Source: a virus
Length of the DNA stretch: 64,000 nucleotides
Direction: 5' to 3' (one strand)
Virus record (IMG/VR): IMGVR_UViG_3300012936_000001
Location: 1 to 64,000 of that record
In this document: one piece after another, positions 3-51,014 of the stretch
How the letters are laid out: each line of letters begins with the position of its first letter
Numbering within the stretch: the stretch's first letter is position 1
The notes under the pieces: generated by a model
What the model was told of the DNA's origin: nothing
Databases searched by the model: none
Seen by the model: only the letters and a program-made list of their open reading frames with translations
Program-made: the position numbers and the translations under genes

Positions 3-68
3 CAGGAACAGATTGCAGTTGATAACGAAATCAGAAATAAAAAACCTTATAAGAGATACACAGAATGA
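3..68 (+). CDS. 3' end of an upstream CDS (partial), possibly a glycosyltransferase
   Basis: Open frame QEQIAVDNEIRNKKPYKRYTE* ends at TGA 66-68 and overlaps the next ATG (ATGA coupling). The function is a guess from context. Confidence 0.5.
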   Translation, partial: QEQIAVDNEIRNKKPYKRYTE

Positions 69-823
69 TTACTTTTTCTCAATTAGGAAAGTACGGCCGC
101 TTAGGAAATCAAATGTTTCAATACGCAGCACTGTATGGAACCGGTTTTATTAGAGGCTATGAAATAGGAATTCCAGATGACTGTGAACTAAGAGATGTTT
201 TTAATCTAGGTTCTGCAAAAAAGATACAATCTCCACAATTTGTTTATCAGGAACCTAGTTTTCATTATGACCCTCATGTATGGCTTATTAGGGACAAGAC
301 TGATCTCATAGGTTATTTTCAATCACCACGCTACTGGAAACATTGTATAAAGGACATCGGGAAAGAATTTGCTTTTCAAGAACACATAGAGACAAAAGCA
401 AACGATTGGATAGAACAAAATGTTGGTGACACTATATTTTGCAGTATACATGTCCGCAGAGGGGACTATGTAAATCTTGCTGATACACATACGAATCTTC
501 CAATAGAATGGTATCAAATAGCAGTCGATATAATAGAGGAAAACATCAAAGATCCAAATAAAAAATTCTTTATATTTTCTGATGATCCAGAATGGTGTAA
601 AAGAAAATTTGTTGGCGCAAATGTAGTTGAAGGAAATTCAGGCCCACTAGATCTTTGCATAATGAGCAAAGCAAAAATTCATATAATAGCAAACTCTTCT
701 TTTTCTTGGTGGGCGGCAACTTTAAGCGGGTCTCGAGCAGTCATAGCTCCAAAGCAATGGTTCGGTGCAAAAGGCCCAAACAACTGGGATTCGATATACA
801 TGAAGGAGTGGCTAAGACTATGA
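65..823 (+). CDS. GT11 alpha-1,2-fucosyl/colitosyltransferase
   Basis: GT11 motifs GRLGNQMFQYA, GYFQS, HVRRGDY, FSDD and IIANSSFSWWAA. Confidence 0.93.
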   Translation: MITFSQLGKYGRLGNQMFQYAALYGTGFIRGYEIGIPDDCELRDVFNLGSAKKIQSPQFVYQEPSFHYDPHVWLIRDKTDLIGYFQSPRYWKHCIKDIGKEFAFQEHIETKANDWIEQNVGDTIFCSIHVRRGDYVNLADTHTNLPIEWYQIAVDIIEENIKDPNKKFFIFSDDPEWCKRKFVGANVVEGNSGPLDLCIMSKAKIHIIANSSFSWWAATLSGSRAVIAPKQWFGAKGPNNWDSIYMKEWLRL

Positions 824-1545
824 AAACATGCATAGTATTTATTGGTACAAACAAATATTCTGATTTTTTTTCGGGATATTACAAGGCATGCAAAGACTAT
901 TTTTTGCCAAAACACGAAAAAACGTTTCTTGTATTTACTGATCAACCTAAGAAAGAATATTATCAAAAACCCGATGTACATGTTAATGAAATAACACATG
1001 TTGGATGGCCATGGATTACGTTACATAGATTCAAGTTCATGAATTCTAGAAATGAATTTTTGGCTAACTTTGATTATGTTTTTTTTATAGACGCAGATCT
1101 TTGGCCATGCTCAAAAATAGACGACAAAATATTAGATCATGATTACAGTTTTATAGGAGTTCAGCACCCAGGATTTGTTGATAGAATAGGCACCTTTGAA
1201 ACAAACACTAGATCAAATGCAAATATATTTGATTCTCAGTATGATCTTTCAAAATATAGGCAAGGCTGCTTTTGGGGAGGAAAAGCCGATAAAATTATAG
1301 AAATGATCGGCATTTTGGATAAAAAGGTTGATGAAGATACAGAAAACGACGTTGTCGCAATCTGGCATGATGAAAGCCACATGAATAAATATTTTTTGCA
1401 AAACAACAAAGATGTTTTTACCCTACATCCAGGCTATGCAACGCCGCAACAAGGATACGAAAATATCAAGTCAAATTATAAGACAATGATGGTTCATCTA
1501 CATAAAGACATTAATGAATTTCCTAGATTTGAAGGTGTAAAATGA
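820..1545 (+). CDS. GT6 (ABO-like) alpha-1,3-glycosyltransferase
   Basis: FIGTNKY N-terminus, VFTD, WPWITLHRF, DAD (DXD), QHPGF, QGCFWGG and WHDESHMNKYF. Start moved to ATG 820 (ATGA overlap with the GT11 stop). Confidence 0.92.
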   Translation: MKTCIVFIGTNKYSDFFSGYYKACKDYFLPKHEKTFLVFTDQPKKEYYQKPDVHVNEITHVGWPWITLHRFKFMNSRNEFLANFDYVFFIDADLWPCSKIDDKILDHDYSFIGVQHPGFVDRIGTFETNTRSNANIFDSQYDLSKYRQGCFWGGKADKIIEMIGILDKKVDEDTENDVVAIWHDESHMNKYFLQNNKDVFTLHPGYATPQQGYENIKSNYKTMMVHLHKDINEFPRFEGVK

Positions 1546-2477
1546 AAATATGTATTATTGGCCCTGGAATCTTACCTATCCCTCCTAGTGGTTGGGGAGC
1601 TGTAGAAATTCTGATAGATGATTACAGAAAAAATTTAGAAAAATTAGGACATGAAGTTTTTATAGTAAATACAACAGTACGTCAACACATTATTGGACTT
1701 ACTAACGCTTTGAGCCCGGATTTTGTACACATACAGTATGATGACTTTGTACACATTATTCCATACATTGAGTGCAAAAACGTTGCTATAACTAGTCACT
1801 ACGGATACATAGAACAACCTGATAGGTGGGATTCTCATTATAGAAAAATATTTTGGGACTTTGTAAATTCAACCGCAAAGTTGTTTTGCTTGTCTCCCGG
1901 TATTGCGGAAGTGTACCGAAAAGCAAACGTGCCAGAAGATCGTCTTTTTGTCACGCCAAATGGCGTTAGAACAGATCTATTTAGATTTGCAGACAAACCA
2001 AAACATTCAAATCGATCTATGTATCTTGCAAAAATAGACTATAGAAAAAGACAACACATATATCAGAATATTCCCGATTTGTACTTCGCCGGCGGTTGCC
2101 ATGATGATAGATTCGATAAAAACAACCCAAGGTATCTAGGTCACTGGAGCAAAGAAAAGTTATATAACTCTTTGACAGAATACGCAAATCTTGTTTTGTT
2201 ATCAGATGGGGAAGCTCATCCTCTGGTATGCATGGAAGCATTAGCTGCTGGATTAGGGTTAGTGATTAGTGAATGTGCAGCTGCAAATCTTGATTTGTCT
2301 CTACCATTTATCGATGTGATTCCTGATAAGCGCTTGGATGATACGGCGTATGTCGAACAAATTATAAATTCCAATAAAACAACAAGCATCTCAATGCGTC
2401 ACGATATACGAAAATATGCTGAGACTTTTAGTTGGGAAACCACAGTAGCTGGTGCTTACACAAGTTCTATACAATAA
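1542..2477 (+). CDS. GT4-family (GT-B) glycosyltransferase
   Basis: IPPSGWGAVE N-terminal motif, TPNGV, and an EAHPLVCMEALAAGL E-x7-E motif. Confidence 0.85.
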   Translation: MKICIIGPGILPIPPSGWGAVEILIDDYRKNLEKLGHEVFIVNTTVRQHIIGLTNALSPDFVHIQYDDFVHIIPYIECKNVAITSHYGYIEQPDRWDSHYRKIFWDFVNSTAKLFCLSPGIAEVYRKANVPEDRLFVTPNGVRTDLFRFADKPKHSNRSMYLAKIDYRKRQHIYQNIPDLYFAGGCHDDRFDKNNPRYLGHWSKEKLYNSLTEYANLVLLSDGEAHPLVCMEALAAGLGLVISECAAANLDLSLPFIDVIPDKRLDDTAYVEQIINSNKTTSISMRHDIRKYAETFSWETTVAGAYTSSIQ

Positions 2478-2487: not shown

Positions 2488-3333
2488 ATGGAAGGATATA
2501 TCTTAATGGGCTTCGGAAAGAAGTACGTCGATGAATGTAGAATGGCAGTGGACATGATTAACGTTTTTGATAAAAAACGTCCAAAGGCTATTATGACAAA
2601 TAAGTCAGATGAGGAATACGCAAGGTCTCTTGGTGTTTTTGATGATATTGTCATCGTTGATTTTGCAAAAGAACCATTGCTAGCTGCAGAAAATAATCCG
2701 CATAATTTGTACTGTGTAATTCCAAGAATATTAATGCCAAAGTATCTGCCATACGAAAAAACAATAGCTCTTGATTCCGATATCGTAACAATCAGTGATC
2801 CTTCTCATGTTTGGGATTTTTTCAATGCGACGAACCAGGCTTTTTCTTGCTGTGGTTATGACTATGAAAGAGTCTGGCATTGGGGAAGAATAGATGAGAT
2901 TATTGCAAAGTTTGGAAAATCTATTCCATCGATTCATGGCGGAGTTTTATATTTTAACAAATCACATCCAGATATGGGCAAATTTTTAAATGACTGTATC
3001 GATATATGTAAAAAATATGATCATTACGGTTGTCACAGATTTTTTAGAGGCGGAATGACTGATGAAGTAATATTCGCAATGGCCATGGCAAATCAGAATT
3101 ACAAGCCTTTGCACTACACAAAATTCCCAATAGTAAGTTTTAATTTGCCCCCAACCATATCTTTACCGTTTTATGGACAGACTCGAACGGGACATTCGCT
3201 CGATACAGTTACAAAAACAGAAAAGCCTACAGTTTTTAACCACATCTTTTTCCATGAAGCGGGTGGAGAACATTATTTTGAGTGGTATCTAAAATTTTAT
3301 GAACAAGTAACTGGAAAAAAACGTGAAGTATAA
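2488..3333 (+). CDS. GT-A fold (GT8-like) glycosyltransferase
   Basis: PYEKTIALDSD (DXD), HGGVLYF and TDE motifs. AAGGA SD before ATG 2488. Confidence 0.65.
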   Translation: MEGYILMGFGKKYVDECRMAVDMINVFDKKRPKAIMTNKSDEEYARSLGVFDDIVIVDFAKEPLLAAENNPHNLYCVIPRILMPKYLPYEKTIALDSDIVTISDPSHVWDFFNATNQAFSCCGYDYERVWHWGRIDEIIAKFGKSIPSIHGGVLYFNKSHPDMGKFLNDCIDICKKYDHYGCHRFFRGGMTDEVIFAMAMANQNYKPLHYTKFPIVSFNLPPTISLPFYGQTRTGHSLDTVTKTEKPTVFNHIFFHEAGGEHYFEWYLKFYEQVTGKKREV

Positions 3334-3901
3334 CGGCATATACGATAAAGTTGTATTTGTGTCGAAACCTAGGTGCGCCAGTACTGCAATATTCAATTAC
3401 ATATATGGTTGGGACGACGATTCAATGGGAACAAAACCATTATATCATCGTTCTGCAAAATATATGCGAAGCGCACTCGATGCAGATTGGAGTAATTTGG
3501 TAACTTTTGCTGTTGTGCGTTGTCCTATACAGTTAGTCACATCATGGTATGTTCATCATAAATTTGGACGGCCGCACAAACAGACAGGCCAATATTATCC
3601 AAGCGATATAAACAGATGGATTACAGATGGTTGTCCTACTCATTGGCAAGTAGATGAAAAAAATCCACTTATTCAGCATGTCTGGACACACGAAGATAAT
3701 GCTCAAATAGTCGATTATATTATCAGACTAGAAAATCCAGACTGGAAAGAATTTGAGAAAAAGACAGGCATTAACATGGAAAGTCTTCCAATAAGCAATG
3801 CCTCGCCAAAAATAAGTACAAAAAATTGTGTCTTAAGTGAAGAAAGTATAGGTAAAATAAAAAACTATTTTGAAAAAGACTTTGTGCTGTTTGGTTATTA
3901 G
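3323..3901 (+). CDS. Sulfotransferase (Sulfotransfer_2-like)
   Basis: 5'-PSB-like VFVSKPRCASTAI, 3'-PB-like FAVVRCPxxxxxSWY, VDYIIRLEN, and C-terminal FEKDFVLFGY. Confidence 0.75.
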   Translation: MKYNGIYDKVVFVSKPRCASTAIFNYIYGWDDDSMGTKPLYHRSAKYMRSALDADWSNLVTFAVVRCPIQLVTSWYVHHKFGRPHKQTGQYYPSDINRWITDGCPTHWQVDEKNPLIQHVWTHEDNAQIVDYIIRLENPDWKEFEKKTGINMESLPISNASPKISTKNCVLSEESIGKIKNYFEKDFVLFGY

Positions 3902-3911
3902 TATACTACAA

Positions 3912-3940
3912 TTGTACATCGAATGTTTTTACATTATAAT
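3912..3940 (+). promoter_or_regulatory. Sigma70-type promoter TTGTAC-N17-TATAAT
   Basis: Near-consensus -35, 17-nt spacer and perfect -10 in the gap before the second sulfotransferase. Confidence 0.7.
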
Positions 3941-3964
3941 TTTATCATTAAAAAGAGATGGCAT

Positions 3965-4600
3965 ATGTTAATGAGCAAAGATGCAAAAATATTCAATGAT
4001 CAAGGATTTGTTTTCATTTCTATTCCGAAAACAGCAACAAATAGTATTTGGAACACAGTACTAAGTGACCCTTCTTACAAACCGTTTCAGCATGCTTATG
4101 CAAAAAAAATTAAGCCAATTATTGAAAATCATTATCCATCTAGATGGGAAAGTCTTTACAAATTTGCCTGTGTAAGACATCCATACAGTATGCTAGTGTC
4201 ATGGTACAAATATCATAAATATCACGATGACATTAGTCAAAACGTAAAAAATTTCTATAACTGCACGTTTGATGAGTGGGCTAATGACAGAAATTTTGTT
4301 ACTCATTGGGAATGGGATATACACAGAAATTGGAATCCATTATGGACAGGCGAAAATCCATTGCATCAATGGAAATGGGTATATGAAAACGATAAGTGCA
4401 TAGTTGATAAGATTATACGTTATGAAAATTTAGAAAAAGATCTTGCTGATGTCGGTAAAAAAATACCGCTAATCAGGTCTCTGCAGAAACTTAACTATAG
4501 TAACAATAAAAAAATAGTATTATCAAAAAGAACAAAACAAAAAATAAACGACATGTTTAATAAAGACTTTGTAATTTTTGACTTTAAGGTGGAAGAATAA
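3965..4600 (+). CDS. Sulfotransferase (Sulfotransfer_2-like), paralog of the previous gene
   Basis: FISIPKTATNSI, FACVRHPYSMLVSWY, VDKIIRYENL and FNKDFVIFDF. Start at 3965 or 3971, downstream of the promoter. Confidence 0.8.
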   Translation: MLMSKDAKIFNDQGFVFISIPKTATNSIWNTVLSDPSYKPFQHAYAKKIKPIIENHYPSRWESLYKFACVRHPYSMLVSWYKYHKYHDDISQNVKNFYNCTFDEWANDRNFVTHWEWDIHRNWNPLWTGENPLHQWKWVYENDKCIVDKIIRYENLEKDLADVGKKIPLIRSLQKLNYSNNKKIVLSKRTKQKINDMFNKDFVIFDFKVEE

Positions 4601-4601
4601 A

Positions 4602-5390
4602 ATGAAAACTATGCTTGTTACAGCGCTTTTTGATATAGACAGACAACACCGCGGAGATGGCAGAAGTATTGTAAATTATCTTGAATGGTTTGCAAAAACA
4701 CTTGAGCTTCAGTGCGACATGACTGTTTATACAGAAAAAAGATTCAAAAATTTTGTACTAGACCATAGAAAGAACAACGGTTACACAACAAAAATAGTTG
4801 TACAAAAATTTAATGAAATACCTTTTTATAAGAACAAGGCAACAATCGATGACATAATTAGTACTGCACAATATAAAAACAGAATGGCATACGCCGGCCG
4901 ATTAGAATGCATTTTAGGTAATTATAACGTCGTTATATACTCTAAGTACGGTTGGCTATCTAGGGCTGTAGATGAAAATCCACAACATGATTATTTTTTG
5001 TGGGTTGACGCTGGTATTAGTAGATTCTTCGAAGGTTTTGACACCAGTCTTCCATGGCCAAACAGAAAAGCACTTGATAATAGTAAGTTTCTTATACAAG
5101 CAAATACAGAACACTTTGAAAATTTGCATGACAAACTTAGCATTGCATCCCACATGTGGGATGGCAGATCTATATTAGTTGCTACTTTGTTTGGTGGAGG
5201 CCGCGACATAATAAAAAACATGGAATACTTAATAAACGATTATTGTGCAAATGTACTTTTTAAGGACAATTGCATAAATAATGAACAGATCTGTATGGGA
5301 CTCATATGGCTTGATAATCCGGATATATTCGATGTTAGGAAGTTTTCCGGAAAAACATGGCTTCCTCTTTTCTTGGAATTAAGTAAGTGA
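4602..5390 (+). CDS. HtrL/YibB (WlaTC)-like glycosyltransferase
   Basis: TMLVTALFDIDR, YLEWF, YNVVIYSK, FLWVDAG, LFGG and NNEQ pattern. Confidence 0.65.
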   Translation: MKTMLVTALFDIDRQHRGDGRSIVNYLEWFAKTLELQCDMTVYTEKRFKNFVLDHRKNNGYTTKIVVQKFNEIPFYKNKATIDDIISTAQYKNRMAYAGRLECILGNYNVVIYSKYGWLSRAVDENPQHDYFLWVDAGISRFFEGFDTSLPWPNRKALDNSKFLIQANTEHFENLHDKLSIASHMWDGRSILVATLFGGGRDIIKNMEYLINDYCANVLFKDNCINNEQICMGLIWLDNPDIFDVRKFSGKTWLPLFLELSK

Positions 5391-9576: not shown

Positions 9577-9618
9577 CATAAAGACACACTGATGTATGAT
9601 TATCAACAAGAGGTGAGA

Positions 9619-12855: not shown

Positions 12856-13145
12856 TTTTATCGTTAGTAATATGTTTTTTAACATTAGCGTTGGCAGTTT
12901 CGTTATATTATAACTACAAGTTTGCAACAACAATAATAAAATTTGAAGACAGCATATCGGATGCTCTCGATATACTGGATGAAAGATACGCAAGTATATC
13001 AAAAGTGTTAGAAATACCACTTTTTTATGACTCTCCACAAATTAGACAAGTCGTAAAAGATATGCAAGTATCTCGAGATTCTATACTAAGAGCTGCTAAT
13101 GAAATATCAAACGATAACGTTGTCGAGGAGTCCAACAATGCCTAA
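12852..13145 (+). CDS. Small N-terminally membrane-anchored hypothetical protein
   Basis: Hydrophobic N-terminal helix (ILSLVICFLTLALAVSLYY) followed by a helical region. ATGA-coupled. Confidence 0.65.
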   Translation: MILSLVICFLTLALAVSLYYNYKFATTIIKFEDSISDALDILDERYASISKVLEIPLFYDSPQIRQVVKDMQVSRDSILRAANEISNDNVVEESNNA

Positions 13146-41781: not shown

Positions 41782-41793
41782 AAGGAAAATTAA

Positions 41794-44517
41794 ATGCCAA
41801 CAAATATCGAAACAGTAGAAATATCAGGTGATTACGAGTCCATAAGTTCGTTTTCAGCTTTTAAGAAATTGCTAAGAAATATTTTTACGACTCCTGCGCC
41901 AATGTTTGCATTTCTCGATGCTAACAACATATCAAAAGGCAACTTTGATTCTGGTTACATTTCTGGAAACAGAGTATATGTTTCTATAGTGGCGGGTGCT
42001 AGTTATCTTTTTGAAATAAATAATGACTCATACACTGATATAACAAATGTTCCTTTCGTTCCACAAGAGCCGCCAGCCATCGAAGTTCCGTCTACGGGTA
42101 GATTGATAACAAAGATTTCGCCTGTATCTACAAATGTATCGCTGACCTCTGCAACCAACTACATCGTCACTGATCCTATAGAGTCACCTATCATAGAGGA
42201 CGAAACGCTTTCTTCACTAGGGATATATTCCGATCGGCCGGCCCTTTTGTCTGTAATACAGCATGCATATTCAGAGGATTTGTTCGACCTGGTAAAAGAG
42301 TACAGATTGTCAAAGATACAAGAATGCAAAAGCAAAATAGATGGACTAGATTCAAAAATTAGAATCAAGCTACAGGAAGAATACTCGGAAGAAATACAAA
42401 AAGTAAATGATCTTATTGCTTATTCAAATGACTACCTAGATATTAAAGATAGGTTGCGACAAAAAAAGAAAAAATTATTCCGAAGAAAAAAACAATTAAG
42501 GGATCTTGACGAGATAATAGAAAAGTTATCGCAAAAAAACGAGTTAATAAAACTAGAAGACGGCGCTATATTAACAACTCTGAATCCACAGGTTGAGCCA
42601 TCAGCTATAGAGGCTTGGATTCTCCAACAAGGAAATGCAAATCCTCCAGGTATTGAAGTGCCGATAGTGGCCTTGTCGCAGCTCGATGCCCTATTGGAAA
42701 TCCCCGCGGTCAATGAAAATGACGACACAAATACCGTCGGAGATAAAATAAGCAGAATAGACACGATTTTATCATATTTTGACCTTACTAAGATATATAA
42801 TTATTATTATACCGATCCCGCAAAGATACTATCCGAGTACGCTGTCAAATACGAAGCGTTAGAAGTTATAACCGATATTGGACTTACGACGTGGACAGCT
42901 GGGGTTCTTCAAGGCGTCAAAGGTTTTCTCACGTTTCTTGAATATGTTGATAACCAAGGATTGTTTGTGCAAGCCGGCTTTCCAAATTTTGGATCTCTGC
43001 AACTTGACGTCGACGAAATATTTGAAAACAATAATGGAGACGGCCCCGGACATGTCGCAAAAATAGCTGTCTTAGAAAAATTAGAAGGCCTAGTCAAGGA
43101 AAGAAGACAAAACCTAGTAAAAATACTAGAAATTCTAGAACTTGAACTTGAATTACCAAGTACAGACAGAAAAAACCTTGAAGAAAATATACAGTCGTTA
43201 GAAGAAGAAATACAATTTTTAGAAAAGGTAGTTATTGACTTAGACATAACAGGATACACAGGAGTAGAAGAGATCTTTGAACTTTCAGGTTTCGATCTAC
43301 CTAGATTTACTTCGTTCCTGTCCGAACAAGAATTGATTACAATCCAAAGGCAAAAGCAGATGTATCTACCAAATTCTGCCATTGGGTTTCTTCCAAAAAA
43401 AGAACTGCAAGTATATAATGAGGCACAGTGGTATCTCCTAAGGAGATTCGCTGAATTTCTTTCAAATCTAGATAATCCTAGATTGATAACTTTTGGCATA
43501 CCATCAAACGCAGAGGAAGAATTTGGTGACTTAATAGCCGCAGAGATAAGAATAGAGCCAGAAGATCCTGCTCCTGCTGGCACTACTGTAAAATTTGAAG
43601 GGCCTATGTTCCTGTATAGCAAAGATGCCTTCCTAGTTATGAAAGACGATTTTACTACTCAGAAGGTTGATGATTTATTTAACGTGACCAATCTTACCTT
43701 TACTAAGTTTAGAAAGCGACTTTATGATAAGCTTGGAGACTTCTTTTCTAGACATTTCATGAGAAAAACCGGCCCAAAGACGAGGCCTGCTGCCTCTTCT
43801 TTCGTTCCAGGAAGCGTTTTAACTGCTTTCCGCAATAACATTATAGACTTTTATGATGGAAATGGAGAAGAGCCTCCTTTATCAACAGACAACACCGGTT
43901 ACATAACGACGTATAAGAAGCTTCCTAATCATGCCAACTTAACCGGTCACCAACCATTCAGTCAAAAAGCAATATTTGTTAATCACGGAATAGACTTTTT
44001 AACTAAGGAGTTGCAGCGAGTATACGCTGGCATAAACCTAGATGAAGATTCGTTCCCGCTCGATGACGAGTCTCAAAATTTTATTATATCATCAACAGCC
44101 ATAGAGTCGATAGAATCATTGGCTCCGGATGGTTTTGACGGGAATATACCTCTGCCTGAAACATACAGCGAACCTGTTCTTTCGTCTCAATTAGTTTCGC
44201 CCGAATATTCATTAAGAAAGATATGCTCTGATAAAATTTTCTCAAGGACTTTTTCTACTTTTGTAGATGAACAAATGTTTCCCGTAACAACAAGAACCCC
44301 ATCACTATACCAACATCAGGCTTCTGGCCTTTTTGGCACCGCGCCAAAATGGCAGCGTGTTCTAGACGTTAGTAAAATTAAATACAAATCAGGCGCTGAG
44401 TCCGGACAAAACAAGTTCGTGTTTTTTAAGGTGAAAAATAGTTCTAATAATAAAAGAACCGGAAACCTAAAAGTGATTATTTATCATAACGGATCAAACG
44501 GTGTCGGGGTACCATAA
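41794..44517 (+). CDS. Hypothetical protein with coiled-coil segments
   Basis: 907-aa ORF, AAGGA SD, heptad-rich stretches. Confidence 0.6.
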   Translation: MPTNIETVEISGDYESISSFSAFKKLLRNIFTTPAPMFAFLDANNISKGNFDSGYISGNRVYVSIVAGASYLFEINNDSYTDITNVPFVPQEPPAIEVPSTGRLITKISPVSTNVSLTSATNYIVTDPIESPIIEDETLSSLGIYSDRPALLSVIQHAYSEDLFDLVKEYRLSKIQECKSKIDGLDSKIRIKLQEEYSEEIQKVNDLIAYSNDYLDIKDRLRQKKKKLFRRKKQLRDLDEIIEKLSQKNELIKLEDGAILTTLNPQVEPSAIEAWILQQGNANPPGIEVPIVALSQLDALLEIPAVNENDDTNTVGDKISRIDTILSYFDLTKIYNYYYTDPAKILSEYAVKYEALEVITDIGLTTWTAGVLQGVKGFLTFLEYVDNQGLFVQAGFPNFGSLQLDVDEIFENNNGDGPGHVAKIAVLEKLEGLVKERRQNLVKILEILELELELPSTDRKNLEENIQSLEEEIQFLEKVVIDLDITGYTGVEEIFELSGFDLPRFTSFLSEQELITIQRQKQMYLPNSAIGFLPKKELQVYNEAQWYLLRRFAEFLSNLDNPRLITFGIPSNAEEEFGDLIAAEIRIEPEDPAPAGTTVKFEGPMFLYSKDAFLVMKDDFTTQKVDDLFNVTNLTFTKFRKRLYDKLGDFFSRHFMRKTGPKTRPAASSFVPGSVLTAFRNNIIDFYDGNGEEPPLSTDNTGYITTYKKLPNHANLTGHQPFSQKAIFVNHGIDFLTKELQRVYAGINLDEDSFPLDDESQNFIISSTAIESIESLAPDGFDGNIPLPETYSEPVLSSQLVSPEYSLRKICSDKIFSRTFSTFVDEQMFPVTTRTPSLYQHQASGLFGTAPKWQRVLDVSKIKYKSGAESGQNKFVFFKVKNSSNNKRTGNLKVIIYHNGSNGVGVP

Positions 44518-46232
44518 TGCTAATTCCTTCTAATAATTCAGTACACATAAATCCAGAAGGCCCAATTGAAATTATTGGCCAATTTGAATATAATTATTTT
44601 ACGGAAGATGAAAGATCGGACGAACTAAATACGTTTTTTGAAAATCAGTCTGAAAGATATAAAACTTTGATAGGGGAACCTAGAAGAGTTTTACTGAATG
44701 TTACAATGCCCTCTTTTATCAGGCAGCCAACCATATTTACAGTTCCTCCAAATGTTCTAGAAATAATTAACGAATGTTCTGAGAATTTTTTTGAATATTC
44801 AGATGGACAAAATATAGAAAACGCAGATGCTGTATTTTCCGACGCAATCAACTCCGGATTTTTTACATTAAACCTTTTCCCTCAAGATCTCGAACAGAAT
44901 ATCGTTACACAGTTTTCTGAACCTGGAGAACTAACAAAAAACAGGTTAGAGAGATTTTTAGTCGGCAATTACGGAGAAAACTCTGGAGAATCATTGGAGG
45001 CTTCGATAAGAAATTCTGAAAGTTTTGTCCCTGTCATTAATCAATCTTCTGGCACAAAGATAAAATCTTCTTTTGCCCCAATGCAAGATAAATCTCCAAT
45101 TAGTCAATTGTCTATGGATTTTGGAAGCTCTATTGTAAAAGCCTCTCTGAATCCGTTAAATCCATACCTAGATGAGTTGTTGTCAGTCACGCAAGAAACA
45201 GAAAAGTTACAGCAAAACAGCAGAGGGAGCAATCTTACTTCTGTTTTTGAACCGCAAACGCTCGATGATTTTGGGTCTGTTGCAATTCCAAAGGCAAAGG
45301 AATATAACGAAGTTGGAACAACTCAGCAATATCGGCACGAAGGTCTTTGGTTTATCGGATACTTTGTTATAAAACAAGACGTCACGGTTGTTCCGACAAG
45401 AATAGTAAATTATTCTTTTTATTCCTCACTGTCTCTTTCTATTGACATTGACGATCCGTATGTAGCGTATGGCAGAAATTACCGCTACTCTGTTCATGCA
45501 GTGTACGCTAGGGTGACATATTCCGCACTCGGTTATTCTGCATCAACGGTTATATCACAAGACTGTGAGAGGATAGAAATAAAGACAAAAGAATTTATTC
45601 CTCCACTTCCTCCAGAAAATCTTAGAGTTAGAAAAGATGGCCGATCAACCAGGTTATCGTGGCAGAGAAATATAAGAGAAAGACAAGTAGGTGAGAGATT
45701 TGTAAAATCAGATGATACGGCAGCCACCATGGTCTATTTAAGAAACTCGGTCAGTGAGCCATACGAACTAGTTTGTTACGTAATCAATACAAAAATAAAA
45801 AACTATACGATGCCGGCCGAGATCATACCTGAAAACATAATAAAATATTCTGCAGACCCCGATATAGAAATAGGGCTTTCAGAGAATAGAAATTATTACG
45901 TAGCGTTGGCAGAAGTAGACGTGCATGGTAATATTTCAAACCTATCAGAACAAATATTAGTTTACAGAGACAAATTGAGAAATACTTTTATATATGAACT
46001 GACTTCTAAAGCAGGCGCACCTAGGGCTTATCCAAACATGTATTTTGAAGATGTTTTGTTAAAAGATATAATCGATACTGACGACATAAAAGAAATGACG
46101 ATTTTTTATTCGCCAGATCTTCCTCAATATGAAAATGTAAATGACGAAGTTCCTTCTTATAGAATGCAGCTGATAGATATTAATTCACAATTGTCTAAGA
46201 CTATCGATATCAAGGTAAAATTCAAAACCTAA
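44517..46232 (+). CDS. Hypothetical structural protein with an FN3/Ig-like C-terminal region
   Basis: D..VAYGRNYRYSV, PPLPPENLRV...RLSWQ and YYV...VDVHGNISNLS resemble FN3 signatures. Confidence 0.55.
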   Translation: MLIPSNNSVHINPEGPIEIIGQFEYNYFTEDERSDELNTFFENQSERYKTLIGEPRRVLLNVTMPSFIRQPTIFTVPPNVLEIINECSENFFEYSDGQNIENADAVFSDAINSGFFTLNLFPQDLEQNIVTQFSEPGELTKNRLERFLVGNYGENSGESLEASIRNSESFVPVINQSSGTKIKSSFAPMQDKSPISQLSMDFGSSIVKASLNPLNPYLDELLSVTQETEKLQQNSRGSNLTSVFEPQTLDDFGSVAIPKAKEYNEVGTTQQYRHEGLWFIGYFVIKQDVTVVPTRIVNYSFYSSLSLSIDIDDPYVAYGRNYRYSVHAVYARVTYSALGYSASTVISQDCERIEIKTKEFIPPLPPENLRVRKDGRSTRLSWQRNIRERQVGERFVKSDDTAATMVYLRNSVSEPYELVCYVINTKIKNYTMPAEIIPENIIKYSADPDIEIGLSENRNYYVALAEVDVHGNISNLSEQILVYRDKLRNTFIYELTSKAGAPRAYPNMYFEDVLLKDIIDTDDIKEMTIFYSPDLPQYENVNDEVPSYRMQLIDINSQLSKTIDIKVKFKT

Positions 46233-46944: not shown

Positions 46945-48531
46945 ATGGCCATAATAACTAAAACTGTAAATACTACAACTGCAAAACCGTCTAATTTAAA
47001 TCAATTGATAGATGTTGTGCAAGAAGACGTGTCGTCATCAGTTTCTAGAAAAAAATATCAAGTATTCGTTACCGGTGGTATAGGGCCGGGAATTACTTCC
47101 TCTCTTTATCAGACAGTATTCGATCAAGATTTTTCGCTCCAAACAGCAAACCCTATTATGGACATGACCATCGGGTTATTTTGGAACGAACATTTCACGG
47201 CAACCAGTCCAACCGACGCCAATGGAAAATCCTCTACAGCCAACATCGTGTCAACAGCACCAGGATTTTCAACTTCTGGTGATAGTGGAGCAAAGAGATT
47301 GTCTTTTGCAAAGAATGCAGTGATGATGCGCGAAAAAGTAAATAACTATCGTCAAATGGCTGCGCACCTCTTAGGAAACGCTGATCTTTGTTTTTCTCTT
47401 GCAGATAATACATGGCCTGGGGCAACTTCTACGAACGACATAAGTTCATTGTCGACAACCAACAGTTTATCAAATGGGACCGGGCTAGGAGCCATTATTC
47501 ATGAAGCTCTATTTATTAACATAAAAAGACTTTTTGCACGAGATGGCATAAGAAAAGAAACTTTTGCAATGCGAGTACACAGATCGGCTTCTCTTACTGG
47601 ATTTGACGATCTTGTAACTGCAGATTCGGACGGTATACAAAGAAATCATTTTTCCAGTTTTTATCACGCCGGTGTACTACAATCTTCGGTTCAAGTACAT
47701 CCAGATCTCGCTGGTCTTGATGGATATGCGGCAAACTTTCCAGTTGTAACTGGATCAAATGTTAGTTATCTTTCTGATGAAATGGCAGCAGGGACTTTTA
47801 TGCCGTTCCTGCCAGATATTATCGCCGATATAGGAGCTCAACAAAATCTACGAGTTTCAAAGGCGGGTGATGTGGCAAGAATTCTGACCGCAAATGGTCA
47901 AGACCCGGTAGGTCTTTTATTCTATGAGGCAGGTGTGGCTGTATTTGATATGCGAAAGTTATTCTGGTCAGATCAACATGTATATGGTCGTATTGACGCT
48001 ATGACAGCAACAACAATGGCTAATACAGTGTACAAGCAAGGCAACACAGCCAACGCTGGAGATTTTGGTACGATACCAGCTGGCCAGACTGTAATAGGTT
48101 GCGATGGCACCGCGGCTTATAACCTGGGAAGTGGTGTTGAAAATACGCAGGCCAAGTTTATACCTGACTTCTTAGTATCTGCGTCCATAGATAACATTGT
48201 TGACCATATTGCAAAAGTAAGATTCGGCTCTGGTTCCCTAACTGCGATGGCATTCCAGAATCAAACCAAGATTCAGTCAAACATATACTTCTGCAGAGCC
48301 GAAGCCTCAGAATTTAATTTTAGCGGCAATCCTACTTTTACTGACTCAACGGGTAAGATAAATACCCTTGAAAATGTCACGGTAGATTCTACAGAAACTA
48401 GCTTTACTTTTATCACTGGTGTTGGTCTAATGAACGATGCAGGCGACCTCCTAGCTGTTGCAAAATTAAACAGACCTATAGAAAAGAACGATGAGACGGA
48501 ATTGACCTTGAGGATCCGCCTTGACTTCTAA
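46945..48531 (+). CDS. Virion structural protein with a C-terminal collar-like motif
   Basis: YFCRA..SEFNFS.NPTF...FITGVGLMNDAGDLLAVAKLNRPIEK...RIRLDF. Confidence 0.65.
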   Translation: MAIITKTVNTTTAKPSNLNQLIDVVQEDVSSSVSRKKYQVFVTGGIGPGITSSLYQTVFDQDFSLQTANPIMDMTIGLFWNEHFTATSPTDANGKSSTANIVSTAPGFSTSGDSGAKRLSFAKNAVMMREKVNNYRQMAAHLLGNADLCFSLADNTWPGATSTNDISSLSTTNSLSNGTGLGAIIHEALFINIKRLFARDGIRKETFAMRVHRSASLTGFDDLVTADSDGIQRNHFSSFYHAGVLQSSVQVHPDLAGLDGYAANFPVVTGSNVSYLSDEMAAGTFMPFLPDIIADIGAQQNLRVSKAGDVARILTANGQDPVGLLFYEAGVAVFDMRKLFWSDQHVYGRIDAMTATTMANTVYKQGNTANAGDFGTIPAGQTVIGCDGTAAYNLGSGVENTQAKFIPDFLVSASIDNIVDHIAKVRFGSGSLTAMAFQNQTKIQSNIYFCRAEASEFNFSGNPTFTDSTGKINTLENVTVDSTETSFTFITGVGLMNDAGDLLAVAKLNRPIEKNDETELTLRIRLDF

Positions 48532-48542
48532 GGAGATCCGAA

Positions 48543-51014
48543 TTGTCTTTTTTCAAATTTCAACCAGAATTTGCGAAGATCACCACGGTAGAACTTAACG
48601 CAAAAAGAAAGTTTATATCTGGCTCCAGTGGAATAACTGGGTCAGTTTTTGTATTTCCAAACAGATCGGATACACAAAAAGACAATATAGACGAAAGATT
48701 AGAATTCTCCGAGTTGCAACCTTTCAGTGGGTTATCTTTTGAAGCTAGAAGAATAGAGATATATGGAGGACAGAATCCTATATTCGGCTCGGGTGGACCT
48801 TTTGCCGATCGCGCAGCAGGAGAATCCTTTCCGACGGGAAATTTTGAACCTGCTTTGGCACTTCTCTTGGATGGTGCCCATCCTTATGACGGCGCTGACG
48901 ATCACCCTCCGGAAGTAACAAAACCAGGAGTAGTAGCACTAAATTTGAATCTTGCGCATCAAGGCTACTCAGATCTATCTACGCATCCTAGAAATGCAAC
49001 TAAGAAGAACATTCGAATGTTAAAAGCTGACGGAAACACTTTTTCTTCGGCCTCAAACGCTGTGCAAATGTTCGCGAGAACTCTGTCAAAAGCACAACAG
49101 TCTTATAACAATAGATCAGGAAATTATTATGATAATTTTCATTGTCTCAACTTCTTTCAGGTATCCCAGACTGCTCCGACCTTTATTAACTATCCCAATA
49201 GGAATGATCAGTACACACTGAACTATACAAAAGGATTTACGATAGAATTTTGGATAAAACCAACAACACACCAAGTATCAAAAGGAATAATTGCACAACA
49301 TCACGGATTATATGCGATTGCAATCGAACCGGCCAAATATAACAAATCAGGAGAGCCTTCTGAATTTAAAATGATATATCACCATACCTCTTCTGGTCTT
49401 CCCGGTACAGGTACATATGAATCACTAACGACTATTCCTGTAGACGAATGGTCACATGTTGCTTTTCGATATGGCCCAAACTACAACAAAGATAATTCTA
49501 CTCAGAACGGAAAGTTATCTATTATCTTGAATCACTCAGCATCTCTAGAATCGATAATGACATCCGGGTCGATATCGAACATAGGGCACGTGTTGACGCT
49601 TGGCGCATGGACGTCAACAGGTTCTGCCTCGCAATTCAACAGAAGCGTCACATATAATCATCAGAACTTAACAAATATGACATTAGGGGCCTTTGGACAC
49701 TCCGTAAGTCAAACAACAACAGGCATTCTAGGCACATTCTATAGTGGGTCAAGCTGCGAAATTCAGGAAGTGCGATTCTGGAAAGAACCAAAAACAATTC
49801 CGTTCTTAAAAAATAATTCTTCTGGATCGTTGACGTCATCACTTTCTTCGGAGCTGTATTTATATCTTCCTTTTTTCTATTCTTCTTCTCTTCCCGGGAC
49901 GGAAAAATATTATGTGTTTGAACCAACCGACTCCAGCGATTTATCGTATTCGAATTATGAAGGAACGATTGTAGGTTCTTCCGAAACTTTCGCCACATCT
50001 TCCGGATTTGGTAATGCTCATTATGCTCATGTTCTCGGGTATAACAGCTTGAATGTTCATCGGTACCTAAAAGATTTTGTGAGAGACGAGTACCCTTTTC
50101 TTGTACATCTTTCTTCTAGTTTTAATGCAGTCGACACAAGAAATAATTCAGCCGCAAAATACAATTTGGCAGATGTCTCTGGTTCCTATAGAAACTTTTC
50201 TCAAAACATTCTACGAAACACGCTTTTACTTCCGTGTGATAACTCCAAGTTTTCTCCAAGGTACAATCTGATTCCAAGCGGTTCAGAGTATTTTGCCAGG
50301 AATAGTTCGATGATCTCTTTGTTGAATATTGGTTCTTCCGACTCAAAAGGCGACACTCTCAACGCTTGGAATGACGATCTTTCCACCATGTCTGCATATG
50401 AATCAGAAAATGGTCAACCAGCATCCGAGTCTGTAATTCCGGACCCAGAGACTTTTATTAACAGGCTGGATTCCATAGACAAAATATGGCCATTTCAGAT
50501 TGCTATTGATATACCAATTATTTTTTATGGGGAAAAAATACAACCAGAATCTCTTAAGATTACTAGTAGAATTCTAGAGTCGAAAAACAAAAAGATAATA
50601 ATAAAAGACGATGGATTTGGAAACCTTTATAGGGCCAATACAAAAAACCCAAATAAAAAGAACAAGATAGGCCAAATAATATATGAGTCCGGTCTCATAA
50701 TAATTCAGAACCCTCATCTATACGATCTTTTTGACATAGAAATAGAATTTGCCGGAACCAATACATTGCCTATTTTGGAATTGGCTGTTCCTATGCCAGA
50801 AGGGAAAATAAATGATCCTAAGAACCCTACTTATCGAGGCGATTCTATCTCTTCATTAAATGCTAACCAGGATCCTGATGAAGCCTTTGCCTACATATCA
50901 GAGGTTTACTTGCACGACGAAAATCTTAATATAGTAGGTAAGATAAAGCTTGCGAATCCTTTGTTGAAGAAATCAAACGATTCGTACCTTTTGCGTGCAA
51001 GGATAGATTTATGA
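48543..51014 (+). CDS. LamG-domain virion protein; C-terminus paralogous to the previous gene
   Basis: FTIEFWIKP, WSHVAFRY and IQEVRFW (LamG), plus YISEVYLHDENLNIVGKIKLANPLLK...RARIDL. TTG start with AAGGAG SD. Confidence 0.65.
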   Translation: MSFFKFQPEFAKITTVELNAKRKFISGSSGITGSVFVFPNRSDTQKDNIDERLEFSELQPFSGLSFEARRIEIYGGQNPIFGSGGPFADRAAGESFPTGNFEPALALLLDGAHPYDGADDHPPEVTKPGVVALNLNLAHQGYSDLSTHPRNATKKNIRMLKADGNTFSSASNAVQMFARTLSKAQQSYNNRSGNYYDNFHCLNFFQVSQTAPTFINYPNRNDQYTLNYTKGFTIEFWIKPTTHQVSKGIIAQHHGLYAIAIEPAKYNKSGEPSEFKMIYHHTSSGLPGTGTYESLTTIPVDEWSHVAFRYGPNYNKDNSTQNGKLSIILNHSASLESIMTSGSISNIGHVLTLGAWTSTGSASQFNRSVTYNHQNLTNMTLGAFGHSVSQTTTGILGTFYSGSSCEIQEVRFWKEPKTIPFLKNNSSGSLTSSLSSELYLYLPFFYSSSLPGTEKYYVFEPTDSSDLSYSNYEGTIVGSSETFATSSGFGNAHYAHVLGYNSLNVHRYLKDFVRDEYPFLVHLSSSFNAVDTRNNSAAKYNLADVSGSYRNFSQNILRNTLLLPCDNSKFSPRYNLIPSGSEYFARNSSMISLLNIGSSDSKGDTLNAWNDDLSTMSAYESENGQPASESVIPDPETFINRLDSIDKIWPFQIAIDIPIIFYGEKIQPESLKITSRILESKNKKIIIKDDGFGNLYRANTKNPNKKNKIGQIIYESGLIIIQNPHLYDLFDIEIEFAGTNTLPILELAVPMPEGKINDPKNPTYRGDSISSLNANQDPDEAFAYISEVYLHDENLNIVGKIKLANPLLKKSNDSYLLRARIDL

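What the first reader, a model, noticed from the sequence alone, without database searches (positions are those of the whole stretch)
65..51014. Candidate phage virion O-glycosylation system: glycan cassette plus [ST]-G-S motifs concentrated in tail proteins
Seen: about 13 kb of glycosyltransferases, nucleotide-sugar enzymes and sulfotransferases runs directly into the late sigma gene and the tail module. Many tail/baseplate proteins carry repeated hydrophobic-[ST]-G-S or [ST]-A-S tripeptides (VTGS, ISGS, LSGS, FTAS, YSAS). By hand count there are 6 [ST]GS and 5 [ST]AS in the 507-aa protein at 18359, 8 [ST]GS in the 823-aa protein at 48543, and many in the 1165-, 1309- and 1900-aa proteins. 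I saw no [ST]GS in Mre11-Rad50 (1043 aa), terminase, portal or the gp6-like wedge. The motifs are dispersed through unrelated domains, not confined to tandem repeats. Inference: they may be acceptor sequons for a phage GT (the GT4s at 10445 and 11698 next to the late module are candidates). The result would be a glycan-coated virion. No flippase, polymerase or Und-P transferase is visible in the window, which favours a cytoplasmic protein or DNA acceptor over host O-antigen conversion.
Basis: partly seen in the sequence, partly recalled or inferred. Interest (0 to 1): 0.85.

Follow-up and report, generated by a model that had tools for sequence, protein, structure and literature searches.

The report
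Ser/Thr-Gly-Ser motif on phage tails
The outer tail, fibre, neck, sheath and head proteins of this uncultured marine T4-like phage carry the tripeptide Ser/Thr-Gly-Ser about four times more often than chance. A 13-kb block of sugar-building genes lies next to them, but nothing yet shows that the tripeptide is where sugars are attached.

Summary
The hand counts are exact. SGS and TGS are the two most over-represented of all tripeptides in nine tail proteins (35 vs 9.2 and 25 vs 6.8 expected). Virion proteins carry 75 [ST]GS against 22 expected; all other proteins carry 14 against 20.7.

The signal is not a DNA motif, not repeats or paralogy (11 of 75 sites), and not diffuse Ser/Gly clustering. 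The sites are conserved columns, hydrophobic-[T/S]-G-S-hydrophobic, across about 40%-identical relatives.

All four tested phages of this lineage (this one, immuto, Mel-JY01, RM378) show the excess and carry a conserved nuclease-GT4-GT4 trio. Seven other large phages lack both, or nearly so. No lineage member lacks the GT4 pair, so the proposed refutation test cannot be run.

In two AlphaFold models the motifs sit mostly at strand starts, tight hairpins and helix N-caps. My best reading (about 0.5) is a structural capping element of beta-sandwich surface domains. The sequon reading stays open (about 0.2). Published LC-MS reports only dA, dC, dT and a formyl-deazaguanine nucleoside in immuto DNA, so bulk DNA glycosylation is unlikely there.

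Earlier notes of this scan report similar motif-plus-glycosyltransferase findings in other phage genomes.

The parts
65..823 (+). GT11-family glycosyltransferase (fucosyl/colitosyl-transferase type)
   Evidence: Pfam PF01531, 87 bits
655..1545 (+). GT6-family glycosyltransferase
   Evidence: Pfam PF03414, 69 bits. NCBIfam Gltr_6, 176 bits, below its cut-off
1542..2477 (+). GT4-like glycosyltransferase of the variable island
   Evidence: Pfam PF13439, 34.8 bits
2452..3333 (+). Island gene of unknown family
   Evidence: No Pfam or NCBIfam hit
3323..4600 (+). Two sulfotransferase-like genes (3323-3901 weak; 3923-4600 above the cut-off)
   Evidence: Pfam PF03567, 19.3 and 29.8 bits; cut-off 22
4578..5390 (+). 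HtrL/YibB-family protein
   Evidence: Pfam PF09612, 70.9 bits
5387..9576 (+). Nucleotide-sugar enzymes: SDR epimerase/reductase, DegT/RfbH-like PLP enzyme, SDR epimerase/dehydratase, GDP-mannose 4,6-dehydratase
   Evidence: Pfam PF01370, PF01041 (242 bits), PF16363 (438 bits). Best NCBIfam hit for the DegT gene is RfbH, below its cut-off
9592..10461 (+). PD-(D/E)XK nuclease, first gene of the lineage-wide conserved trio
   Evidence: Pfam PF12705, 83 bits. Homologues precede the GT4 pair in IMG/VR relatives, immuto and Mel-JY01
10445..11701 (+). Core GT4 glycosyltransferase; the best-conserved gene of the region (58-65% identity in relatives)
   Evidence: Pfam PF00534, 46 bits. Synteny. More than 5,235 homologous 90%-identity clusters. 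In the phage collection it is found only in immuto, Mel-JY01, LR756508 and RM378
11698..12855 (+). Second core GT4 glycosyltransferase; its start overlaps the stop of the first
   Evidence: Pfam PF00534, 35 bits. Conserved next to the first GT4
12852..13145 (+). 97-aa ORF with an N-terminal hydrophobic helix; bridges the GT4 pair and the next gene by overlaps
   Evidence: ORF list and translation
13099..13875 (+).
   Evidence: Homologues in relatives, immuto and Mel-JY01. No Pfam or PHROG hit
16047..18348 (+). gp25-like and gp6-like baseplate wedge proteins, with no [ST]GS excess (0 motifs; the gp6-like family is 0.5x)
   Evidence: Pfam PF04965 and PHROG 219. Counts
18359..19882 (+). 507-aa multi-beta-sandwich baseplate/tail protein: 6 [ST]GS and 5 [ST]AS. 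The family of 80 relatives averages 7.1x expectation
   Evidence: AlphaFold model, pLDDT 87. Foldseek gives CBM/lectin-like and Ig-like hits
19879..23376 (+). 1165-aa tail protein with Laminin_G_3 domains: 9 [ST]GS. The family of 55 relatives averages 5.7x
   Evidence: Pfam PF13385, 43.8 bits.. AlphaFold model, pLDDT 70
23379..24866 (+). 495-aa tail protein: 2 [ST]GS against 0.4 expected
24866..28795 (+). 1309-aa tail protein: 10 [ST]GS against 2.3 expected; weak LamG match
28798..35698 (+). 1900-aa and 396-aa fibre proteins: 17 and 3 [ST]GS. They share a short fibre repeat holding some of the motifs
   Evidence: PHROG 9942 tail fibre for the 396-aa protein
36093..37913 (+). 606-aa tail-region protein: 3 [ST]GS against 1.1 expected
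39433..46232 (+). Three large tail-region proteins (782, 907 and 571 aa) with no [ST]GS at all; internal counter-examples
   Evidence: No family hits
46945..48531 (+). 528-aa tail protein: 2 [ST]GS and 2 [ST]AS
48543..51014 (+). 823-aa tail protein with a Laminin_G_3 domain: 8 [ST]GS against 1.2 expected

Best explanation
Two real features lie side by side, and no demonstrated link joins them.

(1) The glycan cassette. It is a soluble, export-less glycan-synthesis island. Its core is a PD-(D/E)XK nuclease plus two GT4 glycosyltransferases, conserved in every tested member of a very large marine, freshwater and thermophilic T4-like lineage. The acceptor is unknown.

(2) The motif. The tripeptide in its context, hydrophobic-[T/S]-G-S-hydrophobic, is most likely a structural capping element of the beta-sandwich (LamG/CBM/Ig-like) surface domains that build this lineage's outward-facing virion proteins.
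- The Ser/Thr closes the preceding loop or caps a helix.
- The Gly takes the tight-turn conformation.
- The Ser opens the next strand or fills the second position of a two-residue hairpin.

Shown: the enrichment, its restriction to virion proteins, the column conservation and the secondary-structure contexts. Inferred: that the capping role alone is what selection preserves, and that the glycosyltransferases act on something else, or on sites not defined by this tripeptide.
For: Secondary structure and fold:
- In the pLDDT-87 model of the 507-aa protein and the pLDDT-70 model of the 1165-aa protein, the motifs fall on a few contexts. These are the last loop residue plus first strand residues (264, 133, 309, 634, 827), two-residue hairpin turns (T301-G-S-F, T6-A-S-K), helix N-caps (215, 877, the latter an S-x-x-E capping box) and a few mid-strand sites.
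- Several sites coincide with fold-conserved Gly positions of Laminin_G_3 domains, for example L-[ST]-G-S-x-D/E-x-R-x-W.
- Foldseek shows the 507-aa protein to be a chain of lectin/CBM-like and Ig-like sandwiches.

Substitution pattern:
- In the 507-aa family Gly is the most conserved motif position (0.94 retained). In the 1165-aa family it is no better conserved than other glycines (0.49 vs 0.51).
- Position 3 tolerates T, A and N in relatives that keep the fold.
- Counts per protein are narrowly distributed (4-7 in 73 of 80 homologues) and do not co-vary between two proteins of the same genome (rho 0.15), as expected for fixed structural sites.

Outside the lineage:
- A weaker excess of the same kind (1.3-2.1x) occurs in marine T4-like phages without the GT4 pair.
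- HTVC008M, which has only a sub-threshold GT2 hit and no GT1 or GT8 hit, shows it too.

The GT4 pair:
- It has only generic GT-B donor-domain similarity.
- In deeper relatives it lies away from the late genes.
Against: - A 3.7-7x excess of one ordered tripeptide in non-homologous, non-repetitive proteins is large for a capping motif. The classical turn formers N-G, D-G and G-N are not enriched.
- The contexts are heterogeneous (turn, strand start, mid-strand, helix cap), so no single structural role explains all sites.
- The full tripeptide is conserved as a unit, whereas Ser/Thr next to Gly outside a full motif is not (0.36-0.37 retained, against 0.55-0.85 within the motif).
- T4, KVP40 and phiKZ tail proteins show no excess. 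All four lineage members with the GT4 pair show 2-7 individually significant proteins.
- Three large tail-region proteins of the same phage have none.
Confidence: 0.5

Rival explanations
1. Sequon reading. The tripeptide is the acceptor signal for cytoplasmic O-glycosylation of outward-facing virion domains. The conserved GT4 pair adds the first sugars to a phage-encoded acceptor that is the same whatever the host. The strain-specific island (GT11, GT6, GDP-deoxyhexose enzymes, sulfotransferases) builds the outer, variable part of the glycan.
For: - SGS and TGS are the top two of all tripeptides, and only in virion proteins.
- The adjacency is sharp, and the unit is order-specific and conserved.
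- The signal is not due to repeats, paralogy or DNA motifs.
- In the head and sheath proteins the motifs lie mostly outside the segments that match the conserved major-head and sheath families.
- The excess co-occurs with the GT4 pair in 4 of 4 lineage members whose hosts span Cyanobacteria, Flavobacterium and Rhodothermus. Among 7 other phages, 0-1 proteins per phage are enriched.
- A conserved core plus a variable island fits a conserved acceptor with a variable outer glycan.
- Only canonical dA, dC, dT and fdPreQ1 were reported in immuto DNA. Mel-JY01 and RM378 lack a PF00303 hydroxymethylase or thymidylate-synthase homologue.
- No Wzx/Wzy/WecA-like membrane protein is present.
Against: - There is no chemistry.
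- The phylogenetic contrast is effectively a single lineage.
- The GT4s show no specific similarity to GtfA/B, SdgA or other protein O-glycosyltransferases.
- In deeper relatives the trio sits beside DNA-metabolism genes rather than late genes.
- Many sites are strand starts, hairpins or helix caps, as for ordinary capping residues.
- Position 3 can be Ala or Asn.
- HTVC008M shows a 2x excess with only a sub-threshold GT2 hit.
- P-SSM2, which has a large glycan gene set, shows only 1.4x.
Confidence: 0.2
2. The cassette remodels the host envelope. The soluble GTs act at the cytoplasmic face on host Und-PP-linked O-antigen, capsule or LPS-core intermediates and use the host's own flippase, polymerase and ligase. 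This could, for example, block superinfection or stop progeny adsorbing to infected cells. The tripeptide is unrelated.
For: - GT11, GT6, HtrL/YibB, Gmd and DegT/RfbH-type enzymes are typical O-antigen genes.
- Bacterial GT11 and GT6 O-antigen enzymes are themselves soluble or peripheral. The absence of a flippase therefore does not exclude this reading (established knowledge of Wzx/Wzy-dependent pathways).
- The published interpretation of similar islands in pelagimyophages and cyanomyophages is O-chain modification (PMC7029224).
Against: - The GT4 pair is conserved at 58-65% identity across thousands of relatives. It persists in phages of hosts from different phyla, which would not share one envelope acceptor.
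- No initiating phosphoglycosyl transferase is encoded.
- This reading does not explain the virion-specific motif.
Confidence: 0.2
3. The glycosyltransferases hypermodify phage DNA by glycosylating hydroxymethyl-pyrimidines. The neighbouring PD-(D/E)XK nuclease spares modified DNA. The tripeptide is unrelated.
For: - This contig encodes a weak PF00303 member scoring like T4 gp42 dCMP hydroxymethylase (56.7 vs 58.3 bits).
- Phage GT-A and GT-B enzymes are known to build diverse glycans on 5hmC (bioRxiv 10.1101/2023.12.21.572611).
- A nuclease is coupled to the GT4 pair. In RM378 the trio lies beside ribonucleotide reductase.
Against: - Immuto carries the trio and its own glycan island, yet its virion DNA gave only dA, dC, dT and fdPreQ1 by LC-UV-MS/MS.
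- Mel-JY01 and RM378 have no PF00303 homologue.
- A 14-gene island with GT11, GT6 and sulfotransferases has no counterpart among the DNA glycans I read about.
Confidence: 0.1

Closest known systems
Mycobacteriophage virion glycosylation (Freeman et al. 2023, Cell Host Microbe). Known here only through citing papers; the paper itself is not held.
   Same: Phage-encoded glycosyltransferases lie near structural genes. The idea is the same: a cytoplasmic, phage-made glycan coat on virion proteins.
   Different: There the glycans are reported at the C-termini of capsid and tail-tube subunits. Here the candidate sites are internal tripeptides dispersed through tail, fibre, neck, sheath and head-extension domains. 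No chemistry exists for this lineage, and the enzymes were not compared.
LPS-like / 'host recognition cluster' glycan islands of marine T4-like myophages (P-SSM2; pelagimyophages, PMC7029224)
   Same: A large block of soluble glycosyltransferases and deoxy-sugar enzymes lies beside tail-fibre genes. It varies between relatives and has no export machinery.
   Different: This island is anchored on a nuclease-GT4-GT4 trio, absent from S-PM2, Syn9, HTVC008M and T4. The trio is conserved from marine jumbo phages to immuto, Mel-JY01 and RM378. P-SSM2 shows only a 1.4x tripeptide excess.
GtfA/GtfB O-GlcNAcylation of serine-rich-repeat adhesins in Gram-positive bacteria
   Same: It is a cytoplasmic O-glycosylation started by a pair of adjacent GT4-fold proteins and extended by further transferases. 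The acceptor is rich in S-A-S / S-x-S.
   Different: There is no specific sequence similarity (Gtf1, 5e9t, E 0.17). The acceptors here are isolated tripeptides in folded beta-sandwich domains, not long disordered Ser-rich repeats.
Beta-turn and capping motifs of beta-sandwich proteins (type II' Gly-Ser/Thr two-residue hairpins, ST-turns, Ser/Thr helix N-caps)
   Same: Several motif sites are exactly such elements in the AlphaFold models. Gly is the most conserved motif position in the 507-aa family.
   Different: The size of the excess, its restriction to one phage lineage, the lack of any N-G or D-G excess, and the conservation of the whole tripeptide as a unit all exceed what I would expect from generic capping (own expectation, not tested here).
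T4 alpha/beta-glucosyltransferases and metavirome 5hmC DNA glycosyltransferases (bioRxiv 10.1101/2023.12.21.572611)
   Same: They are phage GT-B enzymes in a genome that probably makes hydroxymethyl-cytosine.
   Different: The GT4 pair is conserved in relatives without a hydroxymethylase homologue. The cultured relative immuto has no reported glycosylated nucleoside.

Membership tests
Phage virion protein glycosylation (mycobacteriophage type) | Phage-encoded glycosyltransferases genetically linked to virion structural genes | tested here: inconclusive
   The GT4 pair lies directly upstream of the tail module here and in all 34+ IMG/VR relatives with enough flank. It lies 30-200 kb away in immuto, Mel-JY01, RM378 and LR756508.
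Phage virion protein glycosylation (mycobacteriophage type) | Glycans demonstrated on virion proteins (reported at C-termini of capsid and tail-tube subunits) | not testable with these tools
   This needs glycoprotein staining or mass spectrometry. The candidate sites here are internal, not C-terminal.
GtfA/GtfB serine-rich-repeat O-GlcNAc system | Sequence homology of the GT4 pair to GtfA/GtfB | tested here: not met
   The best PDB hits are TreT, BshA, MshA and PBCV-1 B736L, over the donor-binding domain only. Gtf1 (5e9t) scores E 0.17; the second GT4 has no such hit.
GtfA/GtfB serine-rich-repeat O-GlcNAc system | Long Ser-rich repeat region as acceptor | tested here: not met
   The motifs are single tripeptides in non-repetitive sequence; only 11 of 75 lie in repeats or paralogous stretches.
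Wzx/Wzy- or ABC-dependent O-antigen/capsule locus | Initiating phosphoglycosyl transferase, flippase and polymerase (multi-pass membrane proteins) | tested here: not met
   A hydropathy scan of all 175 ORFs finds one protein with 3 or more TM-like segments. It is 1459 aa, has no Pfam hit and lies after the sheath genes. The contig is estimated 62% complete, so absence from the whole genome is not proven.
Marine myophage LPS-like glycan island / host recognition cluster | Block of soluble GTs and nucleotide-sugar enzymes beside tail-fibre genes, with content that varies between relatives | tested here: met
   Pfam content. Relatives differ upstream of the trio: Gmd in L004, an epimerase in others. 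The islands in immuto and Mel-JY01 differ. Described in PMC7029224.
DNA base glycosylation (T4 alpha/beta-GT, 5hmC glycan hypermodification) | Hydroxymethyl-pyrimidine supply gene co-occurring with the GTs | tested here: inconclusive
   A PF00303 member at gp42-like score is present in this contig. None is found in Mel-JY01 or RM378, which keep the GT4 pair.
DNA base glycosylation (T4 alpha/beta-GT, 5hmC glycan hypermodification) | Glycosylated nucleosides in virion DNA | not testable with these tools
   Not measurable here. For the relative immuto_2-6A, published LC-UV-MS/MS reports dA, dC, dT and fdPreQ1 only.
Laminin_G_3 / ConA-like lectin domain (for the 1165- and 823-aa proteins) | Pfam PF13385 match above the gathering score | tested here: met
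   43.8 and 32.1 bits against a cut-off of 27.6. The 1309-aa protein scores 20 bits, below the cut-off.

The most novel reading that the evidence does not exclude
Hydrophobic-[T/S]-G-S-hydrophobic is the acceptor signal of a cytoplasmic O-glycosylation system for virion proteins, shared by a very abundant lineage of large aquatic T4-like phages (more than 5,000 GT4 clusters). The conserved GT4 pair primes Ser/Thr on outward-facing beta-sandwich domains. A swappable island then builds a strain-specific outer glycan, here deoxyhexose-rich and possibly sulfated. Each phage would thus carry its own sugar coat.
Probability: 0.2. Interest if true: 0.85.

Novelty: new variant of a known kind. Interest (0 to 1): 0.55.

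Why it matters
Glycan-gene islands beside tail genes are common in marine T4-like phages, and their acceptor has never been determined. This work narrows the question for one very abundant lineage:
- The island's core is a nuclease plus two GT4s that stay the same across hosts from different phyla.
- Bulk DNA glycosylation is unlikely in the cultured relative immuto.
- The outward-facing virion proteins carry a conserved, lineage-specific Ser/Thr-Gly-Ser signature.

If the two features are linked, this would be the first sequon-defined glycosylation of virions in phages of Gram-negative hosts. It would bear on phage stability, host recognition and grazing or defence evasion in the sea. If they are not linked, the tripeptide is still a clear and unexplained structural signature of this lineage's surface domains. 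Three cultured relatives (immuto, Mel-JY01, RM378) make the question directly testable.

Tried and rejected
Explanations tested and rejected:
- **DNA-level signal.** All Ser, Thr and Gly codons are used at the motif.
- **Tandem repeats or paralogous domains.** Only 11 of 75 motifs lie in BLAST-detectable repeated or paralogous regions.
- **Diffuse Ser/Thr/Gly-rich loops.** The Ser/Thr excess around Gly is 1.5x at positions -1 and +1 only, and about 1.0-1.15x at 2-6 residues away.
- **A generic property of phage tail proteins.** The excess is 0.83x in T4, 1.44x in KVP40 and 1.76x in phiKZ (only 4 motifs observed), and none of their proteins is individually significant.
- **A conserved hmC-DNA glycosylation role for the GT4 pair.** This is weakened.
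- **GtfA/GtfB or SdgA homology.** Not found.
- **T4-type late promoter TATAAATA as a timing marker.** There are 2 sites against 6.7 expected, none informative.

Steps that could not be completed:
- A relative lacking the GT4 pair. None is in the phage collection. L003 has no GT4 within 10 kb upstream of its baseplate genes, but the rest of its 461-kb record is not held, so this could not be checked.
- The Freeman et al. paper is not held.
- Near-identical DNA search of the phage collection found nothing, and the 823-aa protein has no tblastn match there.

Full report
**What the window is**

The window is the first 64 kb of a 167,118-bp single-contig virus record, which CheckV rates at about 62% complete. 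Almost all genes are on the + strand.

The terminase, portal, prohead protease, gp25-like, gp6-like, primase and fused SbcD/SbcC proteins mark it as a divergent T4-like myovirus. The nearest cultured relatives by portal protein are Microcystis phage Mel-JY01 (41%), the Flavobacterium 'immuto' phages (37%) and Rhodothermus phage RM378 (35%). Many tail proteins have no PHROG or Pfam family.

**The cassette**

Pfam confirms the cassette:
- GT11, GT6, a GT4-like gene and one unknown gene;
- two sulfotransferase-like genes (one below the cut-off);
- HtrL/YibB;
- an SDR epimerase/reductase, a DegT-family PLP enzyme, a second SDR and GDP-mannose 4,6-dehydratase;
- a PD-(D/E)XK nuclease;
- two GT4 genes with overlapping stop and start codons.

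A 97-aa ORF with a hydrophobic N-terminus bridges the second GT4 and the 258-aa gene at 13099 by overlaps. That 258-aa protein has homologues in relatives but no Pfam or PHROG hit, so I could not verify its 'late sigma' label.

A hydropathy scan of all 175 ORFs finds no Wzx/Wzy/WecA-like protein. The only multi-pass protein is a 1459-aa protein after the sheath genes, with no Pfam match.

**The motif: is it real?**

The hand counts are exact. Composition-preserving shuffles, both global and in 20-residue blocks, give P <= 0.003 for the five main proteins.

In an unbiased scan of all tripeptides, SGS and TGS rank first and second in the nine tail proteins (35 vs 9.2 and 25 vs 6.8). They are at expectation in the rest of the proteome. 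[ST]AS is weak.

Over the whole contig, every protein with three or more motifs is a virion protein. Beyond the window these include the major head protein, a neck/adaptor protein and two sheath paralogues. There the motifs lie mostly outside the segments matching the conserved head and sheath families. The totals are 75 vs 22.0 expected for virion proteins and 14 vs 20.7 for the others.

The order matters. The five other arrangements of the same residues give 26-45 sites against 60.

Further properties:
- Codons are diverse, so this is not a DNA motif.
- Only 11 of 75 sites lie in BLAST-detectable repeats or paralogues.
- The Ser/Thr excess around Gly is confined to the two adjacent positions.
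- It partly decomposes into dipeptide preferences, leaving a 1.41-fold tripeptide-specific residue.
- The flanks are hydrophobic (53% at -1, 47% at +3, against 31% background). No charged residue occurs at -1.
- Three large tail-region proteins at 39433-46232 have none.

**Relatives**

IMG/VR holds 245 relatives of the 507-aa protein at 40-50% identity. Wherever enough upstream DNA is present, the gene order is conserved: nuclease, GT4, GT4, 258-aa protein, gp25, gp6, 507-aa protein, 1165-aa protein. The first GT4 is the best-conserved gene, at 58-65% identity. It has more than 5,235 homologous 90%-identity clusters on contigs up to about 290 kb.

The tripeptide excess is conserved. It is 7.1x in 80 homologues of the 507-aa protein and 5.7x in 55 homologues of the 1165-aa protein, but 0.5x in the gp6-like family.

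The sites are conserved alignment columns of the form hydrophobic-[T/S]-[G>A]-[S>T]-hydrophobic. Motif hydroxyls are retained more often than other Ser/Thr (0.85/0.71 vs 0.52, and 0.67/0.55 vs 0.38). Ser/Thr next to Gly outside a full motif is not.

Counts are narrowly distributed and do not co-vary between the two proteins across genomes. In one relative, position 3 has drifted to T, A or N at several sites.

**Controls**

I fetched ten complete phage genomes and scored them in the same way. The measure is the number of proteins with at least 4 motifs and P < 1e-3.

| Group | Phage | Proteins enriched |
|---|---|---|
| Lineage | this phage | 6 |
| Lineage | immuto | 6 |
| Lineage | Mel-JY01 | 7 |
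| Lineage | RM378 | 2 |
| Other | P-SSM2 | 1 |
| Other | HTVC008M, S-PM2, Syn9, KVP40, T4, phiKZ | 0 each |

For long Ser/Thr/Gly-rich proteins the observed/expected ratios are:

| Phage | Ratio |
|---|---|
| this phage | 3.8 |
| immuto | 3.3 |
| RM378 | 3.2 |
| Mel-JY01 | 2.5 |
| HTVC008M | 2.1 |
| phiKZ | 1.8 |
| S-PM2 | 1.6 |
| KVP40 | 1.4 |
| P-SSM2 | 1.4 |
| Syn9 | 1.3 |
| T4 | 0.8 |

The four enriched phages are exactly those carrying homologues of the nuclease-GT4-GT4 trio. The uncultured record LR756508 also carries the GT4 but was not scored. In these deeper relatives the trio is not next to the tail module:
- In immuto it lies about 30 kb from the baseplate genes and is followed by a different glycan island.
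- In Mel-JY01 it sits among clamp-loader, SAM-synthase and GuaB genes, and the first GT4 is annotated as two ORFs.
- In RM378 it lies beside ribonucleotide reductase.

HTVC008M, S-PM2 and Syn9 have no GT1-family or GT8 hit. HTVC008M has only a sub-threshold GT2 hit. The excess is therefore not generic to phage tails. Its link to the GT4 pair rests on one lineage, with a weaker background trend in other marine T4-like phages.

**Structure**

The AlphaFold model of the 507-aa protein (67 sequences, pLDDT 87) is a chain of beta-sandwiches. Foldseek finds lectin/CBM-like jelly rolls, the SraP ligand-binding region and Ig/FN3-like domains. The 1165-aa model (pLDDT 70) contains the two LamG domains.

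On the DSSP strings the motifs fall in four contexts:
- the last loop residue plus the first two strand residues;
- two-residue hairpin turns;
- helix N-caps, one a textbook S-x-x-E capping box;
- a few mid-strand sites.

Two of the [ST]AS sites are inside helices. Some sites coincide with the fold-conserved Gly before the D/E-x-R-x-W strand of LamG domains. These are ordinary places for Ser/Thr-Gly, which favours a structural role. They are not one single structural context, though, and I could not compute exposure.

**What the glycosyltransferases act on**

The two GT4s match only the generic donor-binding half of GT-B enzymes such as TreT, BshA, MshA and PBCV-1 B736L. They show no specific relation to protein O-glycosyltransferases.

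DNA is a natural rival. This contig has a PF00303 member scoring like T4 gp42, and phage GTs are known to build glycans on 5hmC. Against this, Mel-JY01 and RM378 lack any PF00303 homologue. Published LC-UV-MS/MS of immuto_2-6A DNA found only dA, dC, dT and formyl-preQ1.

Host-envelope remodelling is the published guess for similar islands. It is not excluded by the lack of a flippase. It fits poorly, however, with a GT4 pair that stays constant across hosts from different phyla.

**Verdict**

The sequon interpretation passes the refutation tests that can be run in silico, but it has only correlative, phylogenetically confounded support.

I rate the readings of the motif as follows:
- a structural capping role, about 0.5;
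- the sequon, about 0.2;
- the remainder goes to other functional readings of the motif (another modification, or recognition in assembly), which I did not test.

The host-envelope (0.2) and DNA (0.1) readings concern what the glycosyltransferases act on. They are compatible with the structural reading of the motif.

Earlier notes of this scan describe similar motif-plus-GT findings, and the same swappable island, in other genomes. I treated them as leads only. My own tests agree on the conserved GT4 pair and the variable island. I could not test a note reporting SGS motifs in relatives of another phage that lack the enzymes.

Noticed in passing
window 53849-56980: The SbcD/Mre11-like domain (residues 1-257) and the SbcC/Rad50-like domain (300-1042) are fused in one 1043-aa ORF. 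T4 has two separate genes, gp47 and gp46. Mel-JY01 has a similar 1066-aa protein.
   Followed up: partly
window 12852-13145: A 97-aa ORF with an N-terminal hydrophobic helix overlaps the stop of the second GT4 and the start of the 258-aa gene. It makes one unbroken chain: GT4, GT4, membrane protein, 258-aa protein.
   Followed up: partly
genome 66950-68920 (L159:2950-4920): The major head protein is 656 aa. Only residues 390-638 match the T4-type major head family. The roughly 390-residue N-terminal part is extra and holds 3 of its 4 [ST]GS motifs.
   Followed up: partly
genome 73247-79500 (L159:9247-15500): Two adjacent tail-sheath paralogues (1053 and 1018 aa, 34% identical) each carry about 700 extra residues ahead of the conserved sheath core.
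   Followed up: no
genome 82973-87352 (L160:973-5352): A 1459-aa protein with about 11 hydrophobic segments and no Pfam hit. Immuto (1006 aa, 9 segments) and Mel-JY01 (1348 aa, 7 segments) also encode one large multi-TM protein each, but homology was not tested.
   Followed up: partly
Mel-JY01 (PP395634.1) 83441-84932, L120: The homologue of the first core GT4 is annotated as two consecutive ORFs (573 and 909 nt). This is either a split GT-B enzyme or a broken gene, yet the tripeptide excess persists in that phage.
   Followed up: no
window, whole: The T4 late-promoter consensus TATAAATA is not enriched: 2 sites, both on the minus strand, against 6.7 expected. Late transcription signals must differ from T4.
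   Followed up: no
window 39433-46232: Three large tail-region proteins (782, 907 and 571 aa) have no family match and no [ST]GS motif, unlike their neighbours.
   Followed up: no
IMG/VR relatives G001-G005 (loci L023, L044, L036, L035, L011): Relatives reach 236-267 kb at 70-78% estimated completeness, so the clade consists of jumbo phages of about 300 kb or more. G001 and G002 carry further GT1-family genes about 20 kb from the core pair.
   Followed up: no
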